Shown here in pieces: positions 1 to 5,111 of a stretch of 64,000 bases of DNA. The stretch is from Promethearchaeota archaeon (GTDB lineage: Archaea; Asgardarchaeota; Lokiarchaeia; Sigyniarchaeales; SOKP01). A program made the position numbers and the translations under genes. A model generated the notes under the pieces. It was not told the DNA's origin and searched no databases. It was given only the letters and a program-made list of their open reading frames with translations. Position 1 is the first letter of the stretch, and each line of letters opens with the position of its first letter. Location: the NCBI GenBank assembly GCA_019894975.1, contig JAGXNO010000009.1:19644-83643 (forward strand). The letters run 5' to 3'.

Positions 1-2
1 TT

Positions 3-887
3 TCATTTGAGCGAGTAATGCCCGGGAAATTGCTTGAATACATTACAGATTTTCCGAGAGTGATTGGGGGAGGATGTGAAAGGGCTAATGAGAATGCTAA
101 ATTTCTTTATGGAAAAGTAGTAAAAGAAGAACTTCAGGTTACCGATACTTTAACAGCAGAATTGACAAAATGTATAGAAAACACATATAGAGACATAAAT
201 ATAGCATTTTCTAATGAAATGGCTTTAGTAGCGGAAGATTTCAATCGAAATATATTCGAAGTAATTAAACTGATAAACTATAGGCATGATAGGATGATGC
301 ATTTTCCTGGTAGCGGAGTTGGGGGGCATTGTTTGACGAAGGATCCATGGTTACTGATGTATGGTCTTGAAACATACACACCTAAGAAATATTTTGACCG
401 AGTTAAAATTTTGCCTTATGGTAGAGAACTGAATGATTTTATGCCGGAACATATGGTTGAATTGATGGAAGATGCTTTAATGGAAGCTGACAAACATGAT
501 AATTTAAAGATTGCTTTAATGGGAGTTGCATATAAAGCTGATTGTGATGATACACGAAATACACCCACTGAAAGAATAATTCACTTTCTGAAAAATCGAT
601 ATCATTCTCATAATATAGAATATATTGCCCATGATCCATGGGTAAGAGAAAAAGATTACAACGAAACTGAATTAACATCTGATTATGATAAAGCAGTTAA
701 GGATGCAGATGTGTTAATTTTCGCAACTAATCATAAAGAGTATTATTCCATAAACCTCGATGATTTAAAACATAAAATGCGAAATAAACCAATTATCATT
801 GATGGACGTAATATATTTGATAAGGGATTGCTAAAAGCAAATGATTTTATCTATAGAAAAATAGGGGAAGGGTCAAAAAATAATTAA
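3..887 (+). CDS. Nucleotide-sugar dehydrogenase (UDP-ManNAc/UDP-glucose dehydrogenase family, WecC-like), 5'-truncated by the window edge
   Basis: Frame is open from the window start (SFERVMPG). AELTKCIENTYRDINIAFSNE, catalytic GVGGHCLTKDP, YKADCDDTRNTP, IIDGRN. Confidence 0.9.
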   Translation, partial: SFERVMPGKLLEYITDFPRVIGGGCERANENAKFLYGKVVKEELQVTDTLTAELTKCIENTYRDINIAFSNEMALVAEDFNRNIFEVIKLINYRHDRMMHFPGSGVGGHCLTKDPWLLMYGLETYTPKKYFDRVKILPYGRELNDFMPEHMVELMEDALMEADKHDNLKIALMGVAYKADCDDTRNTPTERIIHFLKNRYHSHNIEYIAHDPWVREKDYNETELTSDYDKAVKDADVLIFATNHKEYYSINLDDLKHKMRNKPIIIDGRNIFDKGLLKANDFIYRKIGEGSKNN

Positions 888-911
888 AACTAAATAAAAA
901 AGACTTTGTTA

Positions 912-942
912 TAATCTCTAGTTCTTGCAGAACTCAAAATTA
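912..942 (-). promoter_or_regulatory. 3' hairpin downstream of micro-ORF 977-1123 (candidate SECIS-like element or terminator)
   Basis: Minus strand TAATTTTGAGTTCT-GCA-AGAACTAGAGATTA forms a 14-position stem with two G-U pairs and one mismatch. Related in sequence to 1275-1309. Confidence 0.4.
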
Positions 943-976
943 AATCCTAACGTTTTTTGATTTAATTTCTTGAGAC

Positions 977-1123
977 TTATTTATTATTTGGGGTTTCTGC
1001 TAAATCTTCCTTTACCATTTGTAATTTTCGTGCTCTTTGATACCACATATTAACCATTGATCAAGTTGTAGCATAACAACCATCATCAAATTCTAAATCC
1101 AGATAATCTTCTTCTTCTTCCAT
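977..1123 (-). CDS. Putative 48-aa micro-protein with in-frame TGA at codon 21 (candidate selenoprotein)
   Basis: Manual translation MEEEEDYLDLEFDDGCYATT-[TGA 1063-1061]-SMVNMWYQRARKLQMVKEDLAETPNNK-TAA. Not in the ORF track. Confidence 0.55.
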
Positions 1124-1274
1124 TGTTAAAAACCAATTTGTTTTTTAATTAATTTGAAACAGATGAGAGATTAAAGGGTGCTGATCATAAAAGATAAAAT
1201 CCGATGAGAATAAGTTAATTTTTTATAAAGATAAGAGTAATTTTAATAATTATAAATAAAATAAGTAGGAAATT

Positions 1275-1309
1275 TAATCTCCAATTCTTTGCGGAATTTC
1301 TAAGAATGG
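1275..1309 (-). promoter_or_regulatory. 3' hairpin downstream of micro-ORF 1328-1489 (candidate SECIS-like element or terminator)
   Basis: Minus strand CCATTCTTAGAAATTC-CGCAAA-GAATTGGAGATTA. Shares the TTC-YGCAA(A)-GAAYTRGAGATTA pattern with 912-942. Confidence 0.4.
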
Positions 1310-1327
1310 CTTCTAGCATTTAATAAG

Positions 1328-1489
1328 CTATTCTTTGAGATTTTTTTTATTTTGTTTGGTTTCTTTTCTTAATTTTCGTTTAAGTCTTAAATTTTTAATA
1401 CTATTCATGATTTGATCGACTGTAACTCACCCTGATTTATAGGGATCATTACAGAACGATGTATTAATTCTATCTTTCCACTCAGACAT
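1328..1489 (-). CDS. Putative 53-aa micro-protein with in-frame TGA at codon 21 (candidate selenoprotein)
   Basis: Manual translation MSEWKDRINTSFCNDPYKSG-[TGA 1429-1427]-VTVDQIMNSIKNLRLKRKLRKETKQNKKNLKE-TAG. Not in the ORF track. Confidence 0.55.
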
Positions 1490-1676
1490 TTGAATCAATT
1501 ATTTGTTAGTTTTTTAGTTATAAAATAGAGAGAAAAATAAATATCTTATTTTTATGGTAGATAAGTTAGAGGATCTCTATGTGTAAACACCCTCCTATAT
1601 AGTAATTTTTGGAATAAATTTTTAAAAACGAACTCTAACATATATTTAAACTTGTAAATTTGAAAAAGTGATTTAA

Positions 1677-2354
1677 ATGATTTTTGATTATTGGGATGCA
1701 ATTCGAGGTTTTTTTAGTTGGGTTGGTGAATCCGCCGCAATAATGATGGTTTTAAGTGGTTTAATGGCAATTACTTGGCTAGGTTTAGAAAGGAAGCGGA
1801 GAGGATCATTCACCAAAAGAAAAGTAGAAATAGAGTTTGTTGTAACAAGGTTTTTACGGGGATTATCTTATCTTGGTTTGGTTCTGGGGATATTTGTGGT
1901 GTGGTCGGGCGCTATTGGGTTAATAAGAAACATACCCCCTAGTTTTGAATACCGAGACGTCACCGAAGATGCTGCTAATCATTTTACATGCATCTTTTTG
2001 ATAGTTATAGGAATTGTGATGTTTATGAAGCCAATCAGCGATCTTCCACTGTCAAGTATTATTGGTCTCTTAGCCGGAACTGCTACGGTTGTCATAATTG
2101 CCTTACTCGTACCAGAAGGAGCGGTTCAATTAATTGCCGGAGTAATAGATCCAAAATGGCTGCTGGTTATAATTTTTGTTATAATAACAGTAATCGTTGC
2201 GCTTACGGTGAAATTTTATGTGGGTGTGTTAAAAACGATATCAAAATTTCTGTCGTGGCCTCCTGTAGCATTTGTAGTTATGATTTTTTGCTTAGTTCAA
2301 GGGTTTGCGTTATGGATTTGGGGTGTAAGTATCTTCGGTTTAAACCTCTTATAA
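1677..2354 (+). CDS. Hypothetical integral membrane protein (about 6 TM)
   Basis: 225-aa ORF with several long hydrophobic segments. Confidence 0.8.
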   Translation: MIFDYWDAIRGFFSWVGESAAIMMVLSGLMAITWLGLERKRRGSFTKRKVEIEFVVTRFLRGLSYLGLVLGIFVVWSGAIGLIRNIPPSFEYRDVTEDAANHFTCIFLIVIGIVMFMKPISDLPLSSIIGLLAGTATVVIIALLVPEGAVQLIAGVIDPKWLLVIIFVIITVIVALTVKFYVGVLKTISKFLSWPPVAFVVMIFCLVQGFALWIWGVSIFGLNLL

Positions 2355-2473
2355 TTTAAATAATTTTTTTTATATTTTTTTTGTTTGAGAATATAATTAT
2401 TTTCAGATTTTAGTACCAATTTTAATAAAAAGGAAACATTATTTTAGCTTAACCACGAAGTTAATGAAAAAAA

Positions 2474-2743
2474 ATGGCTGGAATTAAAGAGATAAGAAAA
2501 GAACTTACAGAATTAAGAACTAGTATGAATAGATTAACAGAAGAATTACATGAAACTAATATCACTATAAGGGAATCTTTAAAATTAACATCTCAAACTA
2601 TTACAGAAATGAGTAAATCATTAGATGCTACAATGAGAACGATGTCAGATTTGACCATTCAAATGAATATAAGAGAAACCATTTTAAAGAGTCTCGGAAT
2701 TGATGGGATGATTCCAGATTTTCTTAAAAAAAAAAAGAAGTAA
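2474..2743 (+). CDS. Hypothetical coiled-coil protein with polybasic C-terminus
   Basis: Heptad-like IKEIRKELTELRTSMNRLTEELHE. Ends FLKKKKK. Confidence 0.75.
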   Translation: MAGIKEIRKELTELRTSMNRLTEELHETNITIRESLKLTSQTITEMSKSLDATMRTMSDLTIQMNIRETILKSLGIDGMIPDFLKKKKK

Positions 2744-2754
2744 ACATCCCCTTT

Positions 2755-2940
2755 TTATTCCTTTTCCCATCTTGTTAGAACAAAATATGCGATAACTAGG
2801 GATATCATATAAACCACTGTAATTAATGACCATAAAACAACTTCATTTGAGTTGTTTTCAATTACTCCGACTATAGCTTTATATATAAAATAGATGCTAA
2901 ATAGGGCTAACAGTCTAATTGTTGATCGTGCTTTATCCAT
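2755..2940 (-). CDS. Small 2-TM membrane protein
   Basis: 61 aa with two hydrophobic helices. Confidence 0.7.
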   Translation of the reverse strand: MDKARSTIRLLALFSIYFIYKAIVGVIENNSNEVVLWSLITVVYMISLVIAYFVLTRWEKE

Positions 2941-3024
2941 GATTCATTATAAACTAATATTTAATGATTAAAGTAATATATTACTTAGAATTTAATTAAT
3001 TTAATTAAATTATTAATTTAAAAA

Positions 3025-3231
3025 ATGTCAGATATGTCAACTCCTCCTGAATGTTTTATTTGTAAAAAAACCAGTGAAAGATCAATAGAAAATAGTTACT
3101 ATTGTATATGCGATGTTGCTATATGCCCTGACTGTGTTAATTCTACTAAAAAAAATGACAAAACTTGGATTTGTCCTCATTGTAAAGAAGAAAATAACTT
3201 AGAAGAAAGTAGATTATTCCGATCATCATAA
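3025..3231 (+). CDS. Stand-alone C4C4 RING-type zinc-finger protein
   Basis: C-x2-C-x13-C-x-C-x4-C-x2-C-x12-C-x2-C. Confidence 0.75.
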   Translation: MSDMSTPPECFICKKTSERSIENSYYCICDVAICPDCVNSTKKNDKTWICPHCKEENNLEESRLFRSS

Positions 3232-3437
3232 GATAATTTTCGTTTCTTAAGCTATGATGAAAAAAAAATTAATTATGATTTCATTAAAATGATATCATTG
3301 AGGAAGACTGAGTTTAAGAAACATATTTTATTATGAGTTATAATATTTCATCTTGGTAGAAAAAAGTGGAAAGATATAAACTATTATGGTTTTCTGAATT
3401 TTATTATCTAATTAAATAATTTTTATGGTGGTATAAA

Positions 3438-3926
3438 TTGACTGCAAACATCATTACAAAAGTAGTAGAATTAGATAATTGTAATAAAGATTTACTCATA
3501 AAGGCGCTTTACACAGAAAAATTTTGGGAGATTACTAATCCGGCAAAAAAAATCGACGCAAAGTTCATCGCACCTAATGTATTATATAGCAAAATAACTG
3601 ATGAGATTGTGAAAATTCCTGTCGAAATGGAAGGAGAACTAGTATTACAAGATGAAGGAGAGCAAGAAGAAGGAAAAGGACGATTAATTGAACTTAATGT
3701 TCGTAATAATGAAGATGTTAGAGAACTTGAGGGAAGAATAAGGATTAAAGCGTTAACACCTACCAAAACAAAGTTTGGTATATATATAAAGAGTTTTAAA
3801 TTAGGATCTGATTTTTCGAGTTTAATAGGGGGGGTAGCAGAATTAACTTTGAGAAATAAGATCACAGAAATGTTAAGAAAGCTAGAACGTTGGCTTAGAA
3901 CCAACTCTTTAAATGATTTACTATAA
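3438..3926 (+). CDS. Hypothetical protein, possible START/SRPBCC (CoxG-like) fold
   Basis: TTG start after GGTGG SD. Beta-rich core with a long C-terminal helix (AELTLRNKITEMLRKLERWL). Confidence 0.6.
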   Translation: MTANIITKVVELDNCNKDLLIKALYTEKFWEITNPAKKIDAKFIAPNVLYSKITDEIVKIPVEMEGELVLQDEGEQEEGKGRLIELNVRNNEDVRELEGRIRIKALTPTKTKFGIYIKSFKLGSDFSSLIGGVAELTLRNKITEMLRKLERWLRTNSLNDLL

Positions 3927-4082
3927 CATTTTTTACCGAGATCTATTGTTAATAGTGAATTTATAAGGTTTAAATCCATAACTTAATTAAGTCTTAAAAT
4001 TATTTTCTTTATCCTAAGAATTTAGTGAGAGATTTAGAAGAATATTTTTATATCAGGTACATACTCGTTTAGGTGTTTTGAG

Positions 4083-4928
4083 ATTAACATTTGGATCTTA
4101 GAATCTGATTCAGGAATTACATTGGTATATAAACCGTATATGGATTTCCCTGTTAACGAGGATCTCGTTTCGGGACTTTTAACGGCGCTTAATCAGTTCA
4201 CTATAGTAGAATTTAAGCAGGGCATTGATTCTATAGAAATGGGTGGCCTAAGATGGGTTTATATTCAAGATAAAGAAACTAACTTATTATTTATTGCCGC
4301 AGATTCTAAAGCCATAAGCACAGATATGCTTAGATCGAGATTAGACGTCATTCGGCACACATTTATCCAACAGTATGCAAATTCTAAAAATCGCTGGAAG
4401 GATAAATGGACAGGCAATGTTGAGGTTTACAAACCGTTTGAGAATGTTATTGATGAATACTATACCCAGTGGATACAAGCTGAACGTATAACCACAGTTG
4501 CTGAATTTTTCGATATATTAGGTATCTTTCAACAGATCCTAAATTTAATAATGAACGTTATTGAAGGACATCTGTTTGCAAAAAAAAAGCAGAGAATTTA
4601 TAAGAAAATTGAAAAAATGTTTAAAAATTATACAAAGTTAGAGATTGTGAAGAAAAATCCAGAATTGAGCAATATCGTATTTCACAGAAAGACTGGAATT
4701 AATATTATTAATATTAATCCTATGAACTGTGATATGCTTGTTGTAGAGAAACAAATTATAAATTTAATTAAGCGAATGGTAGAAATCCTTAAGGATGAGG
4801 AAGAATATTTTGAATCCTTGAAATTTTTTGTTGATGAAAATATTTTTGAGTATCTTCTCTCGAATTTTTCTCTTTTAAATGATTTAAACTTGTTCATTTT
4901 TTTAATCAAACTTTTTCTAATGAAGTAA
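4083..4928 (+). CDS. Longin-like domain protein (Asgard eukaryotic-signature type); start probably ATT 4083 rather than TTG 4122
   Basis: INIWILESDSGITLVYKPY...DLVSGLLTALNQF...IDSIEMGGLRWVYI...LLFIAA matches the longin beta-beta-alpha-beta-beta-beta-alpha pattern. AGGTG lies 7 nt before the ATT. Confidence 0.7.
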   Translation: MNIWILESDSGITLVYKPYMDFPVNEDLVSGLLTALNQFTIVEFKQGIDSIEMGGLRWVYIQDKETNLLFIAADSKAISTDMLRSRLDVIRHTFIQQYANSKNRWKDKWTGNVEVYKPFENVIDEYYTQWIQAERITTVAEFFDILGIFQQILNLIMNVIEGHLFAKKKQRIYKKIEKMFKNYTKLEIVKKNPELSNIVFHRKTGINIININPMNCDMLVVEKQIINLIKRMVEILKDEEEYFESLKFFVDENIFEYLLSNFSLLNDLNLFIFLIKLFLMK

Positions 4929-5111
4929 TCTATCTTTAATCTCTTGAATTTATTCGGCTAAATTTAGATAGATGTAGAAGTTATAAATCAGATCTTTAGT
5001 ATTCTTAACTTTTTACTACTCAAGTTAAGGAAAATTAATTTTAAATAGATTTATTAAAAGATGTTTATTAAAAATATTAATTGACTTCAAATATTTAATT
5101 TCGAAATAATA

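What the first reader, a model, noticed from the sequence alone, without database searches (positions are those of the whole stretch)
977..1489. Two tandem hidden micro-ORFs, each with an in-frame UGA at codon 21: candidate new family of tiny Asgard selenoproteins
Seen: the apparent intergenic gap holds two minus-strand ORFs missed by the ORF track. 1489-1328 reads MSEWKDRINTSFCNDPYKSG-U-VTVDQIMNSIKNLRLKRKLRKETKQNKKNLKE. 1123-977 reads MEEEEDYLDLEFDDGCYATT-U-SMVNMWYQRARKLQMVKEDLAETPNNK. In both, the only interruption is TGA at exactly codon 21, the single Cys lies just upstream (C13 or C16), and the frame stays open for 27-32 protein-like codons until a TAA/TAG. Established: Lokiarchaeia encode selenocysteine machinery, and Sec is typically paired with a nearby Cys. 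Inference: these are Cys/Sec redox or metal-binding micro-proteins, or peptide precursors, invisible to standard annotation.
Basis: partly seen in the sequence, partly recalled or inferred. Interest (0 to 1): 0.88.

Follow-up and report, generated by a model that had tools for sequence, protein, structure and literature searches.

The report
Two tiny hidden Asgard selenoprotein genes

Summary
Both minus-strand micro-ORFs (1489-1328 and 1123-977) exist, each with TGA at codon 21.

- **Conservation.** ORF2 is found in 64 and ORF1 in 103 of 161 genomes of the class. All solid hits lie in one family.
- **Coding signal.** The TGA stays fixed. Purifying selection acts on both sides of it (dN/dS 0.12-0.39). 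The frame has no TAA/TAG in any aligned ortholog.
- **Sec/Cys exchange.** Four ORF2 orthologs carry TGT (Cys) exactly at the TGA position.
- **3' RNA element.** Each gene is followed by a ~70-nt three-way-junction RNA (22/22 pairs show compensatory changes). Its long hairpin has the stem length and A-rich, ...AG-ending loop of the published Lokiarchaeota SECIS. It lacks the AUGA/GA core. The element is present after all 43 Sec-form ORF2 copies examined. It is gone in three of four Cys forms, and decayed where ORF2 was deleted.
- **Machinery.** The genome has tRNA-Sec, SepSecS, EFsec, a PSTK-like gene and Sec-containing SelD.
- **Novelty.** Neither protein has a Pfam match, a database name or a literature record, and the scan has not noted them on other DNA.

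The biochemical function (probably a Cys/Sec redox pair at the start of a single long helix) is inferred, not shown.

The parts
1328..1489 (-). Micro-selenoprotein gene 1 (53 codons plus TAG). It has an N-terminal MSEWK motif. Sec is codon 21. Most orthologs carry C-T-G-U; this genome has Cys at -8 instead.
   Evidence: The gene is found in 103 of 161 class genomes, always with one TGA at the same column. dN/dS is 0.27 upstream of the TGA and 0.29-0.39 downstream.
1427..1429 (-). In-frame UGA of gene 1, the proposed Sec codon.
   Evidence: TGA in 19 of 19 aligned orthologs and in every solid hit.
1272..1343 (-). 3' element e1: a three-way-junction RNA with closing stem P1, a long hairpin P2 carrying an A-rich loop, and a short hairpin P3. 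It overlaps the last 16 nt of gene 1. Proposed SECIS.
   Evidence: Covariance model R1 scores it 46.1 bits. The minimum-energy fold gives the same junction. Covariation is shown.
977..1123 (-). Micro-selenoprotein gene 2 (48 codons plus TAA). It has an acidic N-terminus, a C-x4-U motif, then a basic helix with a conserved MWY.
   Evidence: The gene is found in 64 of 161 genomes. dN/dS is 0.12 upstream and 0.24-0.35 downstream. An RNA-seq contig covers 935-1122 (weak evidence).
1061..1063 (-). In-frame UGA of gene 2, the proposed Sec codon.
   Evidence: TGA in 23 of 24 aligned copies and TGT in one. Across the class, 62 places have TGA and 4 have a sense codon; TGT was read directly in G021, G085, G098 and G099.
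909..978 (-). 3' element e2: a three-way-junction RNA directly behind the stop codon of gene 2. Proposed SECIS.
   Evidence: R1 scores it 78.6 bits. The minimum-energy fold is the three-way junction, z = -2.74. P2 is a 9-bp stem plus a 12-nt loop of the lokiSECIS type.
1518..1526 (-). TATA-like box about 33 nt upstream of the ATG of gene 1. This implies a very short leader.
   Evidence: Read from the sequence. Inferred, not tested.
1218..1229 (-). Nearly invariant TATA-like box in the spacer between e1 and gene 2, the candidate promoter of gene 2. A second conserved AT-rich box lies at 1183-1199.
   Evidence: Conserved columns in the alignment of 23 orthologous regions. Inferred.
891..902 (-). 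T-run behind e2, a candidate archaeal terminator.
   Evidence: Read from the sequence. Inferred.

Best explanation
The gap holds two paralogous, independently transcribed genes for very small selenoproteins (about 45-60 residues across orthologs).

In each gene the UGA is decoded as selenocysteine by the genome's tRNA-Sec and EFsec. Decoding is directed by a dedicated ~70-nt RNA that begins at or just before the stop codon.

That RNA is a three-way junction with three parts:
- a closing stem;
- a 9-11-bp AU-rich hairpin whose 11-12-nt loop has an invariant AAA and ends in UAG, as in the Lokiarchaeota SECIS;
- a 6-bp hairpin with a conserved CGCAA-type loop.

It has no AUGA/GA kink-turn core, so it would be a new SECIS architecture.

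The proteins are predicted to be an acidic, disordered N-terminal part followed by one long amphipathic, basic helix. A Cys lies 3-8 residues before the Sec, and the Sec sits in the first turns of the helix.

What is shown: the genes are real, they are translated through the UGA position, and the RNA is structured and tied to the UGA state.

What is inferred: the residue inserted is Sec, the RNA is the SECIS, and the Cys/Sec pair works as a reversible selenylsulfide redox or selenium/metal-handling centre.
For: (1) Conservation. A ~480-nt block of the 'intergenic' gap is about 70% identical in 22 of the 24 same-genus genomes searched first. Alignment of 23 orthologous regions shows both ORFs.

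(2) Coding signal on both sides of the UGA.
- ORF2 has pS 0.63 and pN 0.15 upstream, and pS 0.52 and pN 0.19-0.26 downstream.
- ORF1 has dN/dS 0.27 upstream and 0.29-0.39 downstream.
- The reading frame has no TAA/TAG in 24/24 and 19/19 orthologs. The other two frames carry 2-5 per sequence.

(3) Fixed UGA and Sec/Cys exchange.
- ORF2 has 62 places with one TGA and 4 with a sense codon. TGT was read directly in G021, G085, G098 and G099. In those four genomes the whole ORF is open under the standard code.
- Every solid ORF1 hit has one TGA at the aligned position.

(4) The RNA element.
- 87 copies are found in 47 loci.
- 94.9% of cells are paired, against 27-54% when partners are slid.
- 22 of 22 pairs show double compensatory changes. 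Stems are fully rewritten in other genera.
- Minimum-energy folds of the window's own copies give the same junction.

(5) Likeness to the known SECIS of the same genome.
- The vhuD genes carry AUGA, a 9-bp stem, an 11-nt AAAAA...UAG loop, then GA or AA. This matches the description in PMC4989117.
- The P2 loop has AAA in 87/87 copies, a final G in 87/87, and a penultimate A in 84/87.

(6) The element tracks the UGA.
- It is present after all 43 Sec-form ORF2 copies examined.
- It is absent after the Cys forms of G085, G098 and G099.
- It is degenerate after the Cys form of G021.
- It is degenerate in G024, where ORF2 itself is deleted.

(7) Machinery in the genome.
- tRNA-Sec scores 62.6 bits.
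- SepSecS scores 482 bits and lies next to it.
- EFsec scores 248 bits.
- A PSTK-like gene is present.
- Two SelD and three VhuD genes have in-frame TGA.

(8) Protein models. Both models show one long helix with pLDDT 81-90 just after the Sec. The two families align over their whole length with U on U (hhalign probability 94.7%).
Against: - The element lacks the AUGA/GA core that the literature reports as invariant in Lokiarchaeota and eukaryotic SECIS. The covariance model finds it only behind these two genes in this genome. Its SECIS role therefore rests on association, not on shared use with known selenoproteins.
- The G021 Cys form still keeps most of the element.
- Three of the four Cys forms are near-identical, so they are probably one evolutionary event. 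The element-loss correlation rests on about two or three independent events.
- No Cys form of ORF1 was found.
- There is no direct evidence for selenium in the product.
- Transcription evidence is one RNA-seq contig plus two contigs from libraries that may be DNA.
- The alignment used for pair counts was fitted to the model structure.
Confidence: 0.85

Rival explanations
1. The UGA is read through without selenocysteine, for example by near-cognate Trp or Cys insertion. The 3' junction would then be a terminator, a stability element or a protein-binding site unrelated to Sec.
For: The element has no AUGA/GA core. It is not shared with any known selenoprotein gene of the genome. The G021 Cys form keeps most of it.
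Against: - UGA exchanges only with Cys (TGT), the classic Sec signature.
- A Cys partner lies 3-8 residues upstream in both families.
- The P2 stem and loop copy the lokiSECIS apical part.
- The element is lost or decays when the UGA or the ORF is lost.
- The genome has full Sec machinery.
Confidence: 0.07
2. Translation stops at the UGA and gives 20-24-residue peptides. The conserved downstream part would be RNA structure, or a second peptide made by re-initiation.
For: ORF2 has a Met two codons after the UGA in most orthologs. UGA is a normal stop elsewhere in the genome.
Against: - Downstream codons show protein-type constraint in the same frame (dN/dS 0.24-0.39) and no TAA/TAG in any ortholog.
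- Most ORF1 orthologs have no Met after the UGA.
- Four genomes have a sense codon at the site, which gives one continuous ORF.
- The structured RNA starts only at the end of the ORF.
Confidence: 0.04
3. The region encodes only non-coding RNA, and the open frames are by-products of its conservation.
For: Part of the conserved block is indeed structured RNA. The region is AT-rich and annotation pipelines leave it unannotated under the standard code.
Against: - Third-codon-position variation and low dN/dS are seen in the reading frame.
- Only that frame is free of stops.
- Amino-acid motifs are conserved across four genera while synonymous sites are near saturation.
- No Rfam family matches the region.
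Confidence: 0.02

Closest known systems
Lokiarchaeota eukaryote-like SECIS (lokiSECIS; Mariotti et al. 2016, PMC4989117; type I/II of Huang et al. 2024, PMC11227280)
   Same: It sits at or just behind the stop codon in the 3' UTR and may overlap the coding end. It has a 9-11-bp helix capped by an 11-12-nt loop with a run of A near its start and a final ...AG. In a sister genus the loop is, apart from its first base, the same as that of a vhuD SECIS of this genome.
   Different: There is no AUGA before the helix and no GA/AA after it. The helix base opens into a three-way junction, with a conserved closing stem and an extra 6-bp hairpin whose loop is itself conserved. All junction-flanking pairs behave as Watson-Crick pairs, so no kink-turn is apparent.
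Canonical selenoprotein genes of the same genome (SelD, VhuD/FrhD, HdrA, Prx-like)
   Same: They share an in-frame UGA at a Cys-equivalent position, a nearby partner Cys, a 3' RNA signal and the same Sec machinery.
   Different: Those belong to families shared with methanogens or bacteria and are enzymes of 150-650 residues. The two micro-proteins have no detectable relatives outside one Lokiarchaeial family and no Pfam domain.
Small thioredoxin-fold CxxU selenoproteins (SelW-like and relatives)
   Same: They are small and have a Cys two residues before Sec (C-T-G-U in most ORF1 orthologs). The Sec lies at the N-terminal end of a helix.
   Different: The micro-proteins are far too short for a thioredoxin fold and are predicted as a single long helix. 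ORF2 has C-x4-U, and the window's ORF1 has Cys at -8. No sequence similarity was found.
Methanococcales/Methanopyrus SECIS (GAA_A bulge, GC-rich stems)
   Same: It is a 3' UTR location in an archaeon.
   Different: There is no GAA_A asymmetric bulge and no GC-only upper stem. The stems are AU-rich. No Rfam SECIS model matched.

Membership tests
Selenoprotein gene (UGA recoded to Sec) | In-frame UGA conserved at one alignment column across orthologs | tested here: met
   ORF2 has TGA in 62 of 66 places. Every solid ORF1 hit has one TGA.
Selenoprotein gene (UGA recoded to Sec) | Protein-level conservation on both sides of the UGA in the same frame | tested here: met
   dN/dS is 0.12-0.39 on both sides. 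No TAA/TAG occurs in frame in 43 of 43 sequences, while other frames carry 2-5 each.
Selenoprotein gene (UGA recoded to Sec) | Homologs with Cys aligned to the UGA | tested here: met
   Met for ORF2: TGT in G021, G085, G098 and G099, plus database protein P0011. Not met for ORF1: no Cys form was found.
Selenoprotein gene (UGA recoded to Sec) | Sec machinery in the same genome | tested here: met
   tRNA-Sec, SepSecS and EFsec are present. A PSTK-like gene scores below the curated cut-off. SelD is present.
Selenoprotein gene (UGA recoded to Sec) | Selenium demonstrated in the product | not testable with these tools
   This needs 75Se labelling or Se-aware mass spectrometry.
lokiSECIS / eukaryote-like SECIS | AUGA immediately 5' of the main helix and GA (or AA) immediately 3' (kink-turn core) | tested here: not met
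   Consensus of 87 copies: the helix is preceded by an A-rich junction and followed by U or UAY. Flanking G/A positions pair as Watson-Crick with covariation. Canonical cores are present at vhuD genes of the same genome.
lokiSECIS / eukaryote-like SECIS | About 9-bp helix with an about 11-nt apical loop, A-run at the loop start, final G preceded by A | tested here: met
   P2 is 9-11 bp. The loop is 11-12 nt, with AAA in 87/87 copies, final G in 87/87 and penultimate A in 84/87.
lokiSECIS / eukaryote-like SECIS | Located in the 3' UTR close to, or overlapping, the stop codon of a UGA-containing ORF | tested here: met
   e2 starts at the stop codon. e1 overlaps the last 16 nt of ORF1 or starts 1-6 nt behind it.
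lokiSECIS / eukaryote-like SECIS | Dispensable, and so lost, when Sec is replaced by Cys | tested here: met
   The element follows 43 of 43 Sec-form copies. It is absent in 3 of 4 Cys forms and degenerate in the fourth. It is also degenerate where ORF2 is deleted. The number of independent events is small.
Methanococcales-type archaeal SECIS | GAA_A asymmetric bulge between a GC-rich 10-bp stem and a 3-bp GC stem | tested here: not met
   No such bulge or GC stems appear in the consensus. No Rfam SECIS hit was found.
Thioredoxin-fold CxxU selenoproteins | Thioredoxin-like fold carrying the CxxU motif | tested here: not met
   The proteins are 45-60 residues and the AlphaFold2 models are a single long helix. 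There is no Pfam match.

The most novel reading that the evidence does not exclude
The three-way junction is a working SECIS that needs no AUGA/GA kink-turn core. Recognition by the still unknown Asgard SECIS reader would then rest on the A-rich apical loop, and perhaps on the second conserved loop. This would be a third SECIS architecture within the lineage that bridges archaeal and eukaryotic Sec decoding. It serves two lineage-born micro-selenoproteins, which would be the first Asgard selenoprotein families not inherited from methanogen or bacterial families.
Probability: 0.6. Interest if true: 0.85.

Novelty: new variant of a known kind. Interest (0 to 1): 0.8.

Why it matters
- **New families.** Surveys of Asgard selenoproteomes worked by homology to known families and list only seven, all shared with other prokaryotes (PMC11227280, PMC13188914). 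These two families show that lineage-specific selenoproteins exist there and are missed. They are shorter than typical gene-calling limits, interrupted by UGA, and followed by a signal that canonical SECIS models do not detect.
- **SECIS evolution.** The signal keeps the apical half of the eukaryote-like SECIS but replaces the kink-turn core by a junction. This bears directly on two open questions: what the Asgard SECIS-binding factor recognises, and how the eukaryotic SECIS arose.
- **Practical use.** The pair gives a compact, testable system: a ~50-codon gene plus a ~70-nt RNA, with natural Cys variants that have lost the RNA.

Tried and rejected
- **Rfam.** A scan of 1-5000 at E up to 10 gave no SECIS or other credible family. 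The weak miRNA-like hits at 1291-1346 on both strands are simply the P3/P1 hairpin region of e1.
- **MAFFT alignments.** The alignment of all 46 elements put the two element types one base out of register, so RNAalifold saw only P2. It was replaced by a model-guided alignment.
- **Possible third element.** The candidate at C98:9549-9611 (24.5 bits) lies inside an ordinary coding region and was rejected.
- **ESM Atlas.** The look-up of the Cys form gave no usable hit.
- **Homodimer.** The prediction for the Cys form returned no verdict.
- **SepSecS distribution.** SepSecS is in 153 of 161 genomes of the class, so presence of the Sec trait cannot discriminate genomes with and without the micro-genes.
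- **Public reads.** Only assembled contigs were available. One 188-nt contig from a true RNA-seq library covers 935-1122. Two contigs from 'metatranscriptomic WGS' libraries also end at 1120-1122. This is a weak hint of expression and of a 5' end near the ATG. It may equally reflect strain-variant breaks or DNA carry-over.
- **Kink-turn hidden in the junction.** I considered a core formed by UGA before P3 and GA after it. The positions concerned covary as Watson-Crick pairs, so this was rejected.

Full report
**Observation**

- One ORF runs 1489-1328 and one runs 1123-977. Each is interrupted only by TGA at codon 21.
- A single Cys lies 8 and 5 residues upstream of the TGA, respectively.
- The flanking genes are a UDP-glucose/GDP-mannose dehydrogenase family member and a membrane protein with no Pfam match.
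- In dinucleotide shuffles of the gap, two or more such frames arise in 1.35% of trials. The single-sequence pattern is therefore only suggestive.

**The gap is not intergenic**

- A blastn search of the gap against 40 relatives showed that window ~892-1377 is about 70% identical in 22 of the 24 same-genus genomes searched. Two close relatives are 78-80% identical over the whole gap.
- Aligning 23 orthologous regions shows both ORFs, a spacer with nearly invariant AT-rich boxes, and a ~70-nt conserved block behind each ORF.

**Coding evidence**

- Codon alignments give ORF2 pS 0.63 and pN 0.15 upstream of the TGA, and pS 0.52 and pN 0.19-0.26 downstream.
- ORF1 has dN/dS 0.27 upstream and 0.29-0.39 downstream.
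- The reading frame contains no TAA/TAG in 24/24 and 19/19 sequences. The other frames carry 2-5 per sequence.
- Both halves of both ORFs are therefore under protein-type selection in one continuous frame.

**Distribution and Sec/Cys exchange**

- The ORF2 profile finds 66 places in 64 of 161 genomes of the class, all in one family and four genera.
- 62 of those places have exactly one TGA and four have none.
- The four exceptions have TGT at the aligned codon. They represent at least two separate lineages. G085, G098 and G099 are near-identical to each other. G021 is distinct.
- The ORF1 profile finds 103 of 161 genomes (101 of 134 in the family, nine genera). Every solid hit has one TGA at the aligned position, and no Cys form was seen.
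- Public records name these MAGs Promethearchaeota/Promethearchaeia, the Lokiarchaeia-type Asgard archaea.
- The two families are paralogs. hhalign gives 94.7% probability and E = 6e-8 over the full length, with U aligned on U.

**The 3' element**

Each ORF is followed by a related ~70-nt sequence: e1 at 1272-1343 and e2 at 909-978.
- *Search.* A covariance model built from 23 e2 copies finds 87 copies at E < 1e-4 in 47 loci. It always lies directly behind an ORF1 or ORF2 ortholog.
- *Own genome.* In this genome it finds only these two. A third marginal hit lies inside an ordinary gene.
- *Structure.* The element is a three-way junction:
  - P1 is a closing stem (AUCUC with GAGAU).
  - P2 has 9-11 AU-rich pairs and an 11-12-nt loop.
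  - P3 has 6 pairs and a CGCAA-type loop.
- *Covariation.* On the 87-copy alignment, 94.9% of cells pair, against 27-54% when partners are slid. All 22 pairs show double compensatory changes. The caveat is that this alignment was fitted to the model.
- *Independent support.* In other genera P2 and P3 are rewritten with different base pairs while the loops stay. Minimum-energy folding of the window's own copies gives the same junction.

**Relation to the known SECIS**

- This genome's vhuD genes, each with two in-frame TGAs, carry textbook lokiSECIS elements: AUGA, a 9-bp stem, an 11-nt AAAAA...UAG loop, then GA or AA. This matches the published description.
- P2 reproduces the helix length and the loop signature. 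AAA is invariant in 87/87 copies, the last base is G in 87/87, and the base before it is A in 84/87.
- In one sister genus, P2 is exactly 9 bp plus an 11-nt loop. That loop differs from a vhuD loop of this genome only in its first base.
- The AUGA/GA core is absent. The bases flanking the helices pair as Watson-Crick pairs with covariation. No Rfam SECIS model matches.

**The element tracks the UGA**

- All 43 Sec-form ORF2 copies examined have the element directly 3'.
- The Cys forms of G085, G098 and G099 have only an unrecognisable remnant between the stop and the convergent gene. Their ORF1 upstream keeps its own element.
- The G021 Cys form keeps the element, but P1 and the P3 loop are altered.
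- In G024, ORF2 itself is deleted. The e2 remnant has lost the UAG of the loop and the 3' strand of P1.
- This is the pattern expected of a SECIS. The number of independent events is small.

**Machinery**

- tRNA-Sec is found by ARAGORN and by Rfam (62.6 bits, above the cut-off).
- SepSecS lies next to it (482 bits).
- EFsec scores 248 bits, above the cut-off.
- A full-length PSTK-like gene scores below the cut-off.
- Two tandem selD genes each carry one TGA.

**Expression signals**

- TATA-like boxes precede both genes and T-runs follow both elements. This is inference.
- One 188-nt contig from an RNA-seq metatranscriptome covers 935-1122 at 96% identity. Contigs from two further libraries end at the same place. 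This is weak evidence.

**Protein features**

- Neither protein has a Pfam match.
- AlphaFold2 with the ortholog alignments predicts ORF2 as a disordered acidic N-terminus plus a helix over residues 14-43. It predicts ORF1 as a short helix, a loop, then a helix over residues 19-52. In ORF1 the Sec lies in the first turn of the long helix; in ORF2 it lies about two turns into it.
- pLDDT is 81-90 over the 20 residues after the Sec.
- Most ORF1 orthologs carry C-T-G-U. The window's clade has the Cys at -8 instead. ORF2 carries C-x4-U.
- A nucleophile at a helix N-terminus with a nearby resolving Cys is the arrangement of thiol/selenol oxidoreductases. A redox, or selenium- or metal-handling, role is therefore the most likely chemistry. 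This is inference only.

**Is it known?**

- The 5.8-billion-protein collection holds 14 ORF2 and 18 ORF1 relatives. All are unnamed or 'hypothetical', and none has a Pfam match.
- All of these whose sequences were read (27 of 32) carry W at the UGA position, because gene callers used a TGA=Trp code on short contigs. The one exception is a Cys form of ORF2.
- The two Asgard selenoproteome studies and a 2026 review list seven families, found by homology to known ones. The 2016 SECIS-based search reported no further candidates.
- The scan's own notes hold nothing similar on other DNA.

**Verdict**

These are genuine, conserved, previously unrecognised micro-selenoprotein genes (confidence about 0.85). 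Each is served by a SECIS-like three-way junction that lacks the canonical core. Biochemical function and the SECIS role need experiments.

Noticed in passing
window 1613-1676 (+), upstream of the membrane-protein gene at 1677: A 64-nt stretch is 77-86% identical across the genus, more than expected for a spacer. It contains AT-rich TATA-like boxes and a GTGAT about 10 nt before the ATG, so it is probably the promoter and leader of that gene.
   Followed up: partly
L013 (G005:C1:188480-191954) and L015 (G005:C1:2131500-2132800): One complete genome carries three copies of the ORF2 gene with its element. Two lie 1 kb apart at one locus and one lies at a second locus. This indicates recent duplication of the gene together with its RNA.
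   Followed up: partly
L023 (G014:C20) and L027 (G019:C149): In two genomes about 1.4 kb is inserted between the conserved promoter block of the membrane-protein gene and the ORF1 gene. The content of the insert was not examined.
   Followed up: no
L029 (G024:C84:5800-6600): The ORF2 gene is deleted, leaving e1 and a decaying e2 only 48 nt apart. ORF1 is intact.
   Followed up: yes
G000:C108:10686-12773 (-): Two tandem selD genes each have one in-frame TGA and a type-II-like SECIS behind it. Duplicated Sec-SelD was noted as unusual in PMC11227280.
   Followed up: partly
window 3025-3231 (+): A 68-residue protein with two CxxC pairs gives weak RING/FYVE-type zinc-finger matches below the Pfam cut-offs. 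It is one of several very small ORFs in this neighbourhood.
   Followed up: no
window 3242-3322: Weak Rfam hits on both strands (snoRNA- and miRNA-like, far below gathering scores) point to a palindromic hairpin behind the small zinc-finger gene, possibly a terminator.
   Followed up: no
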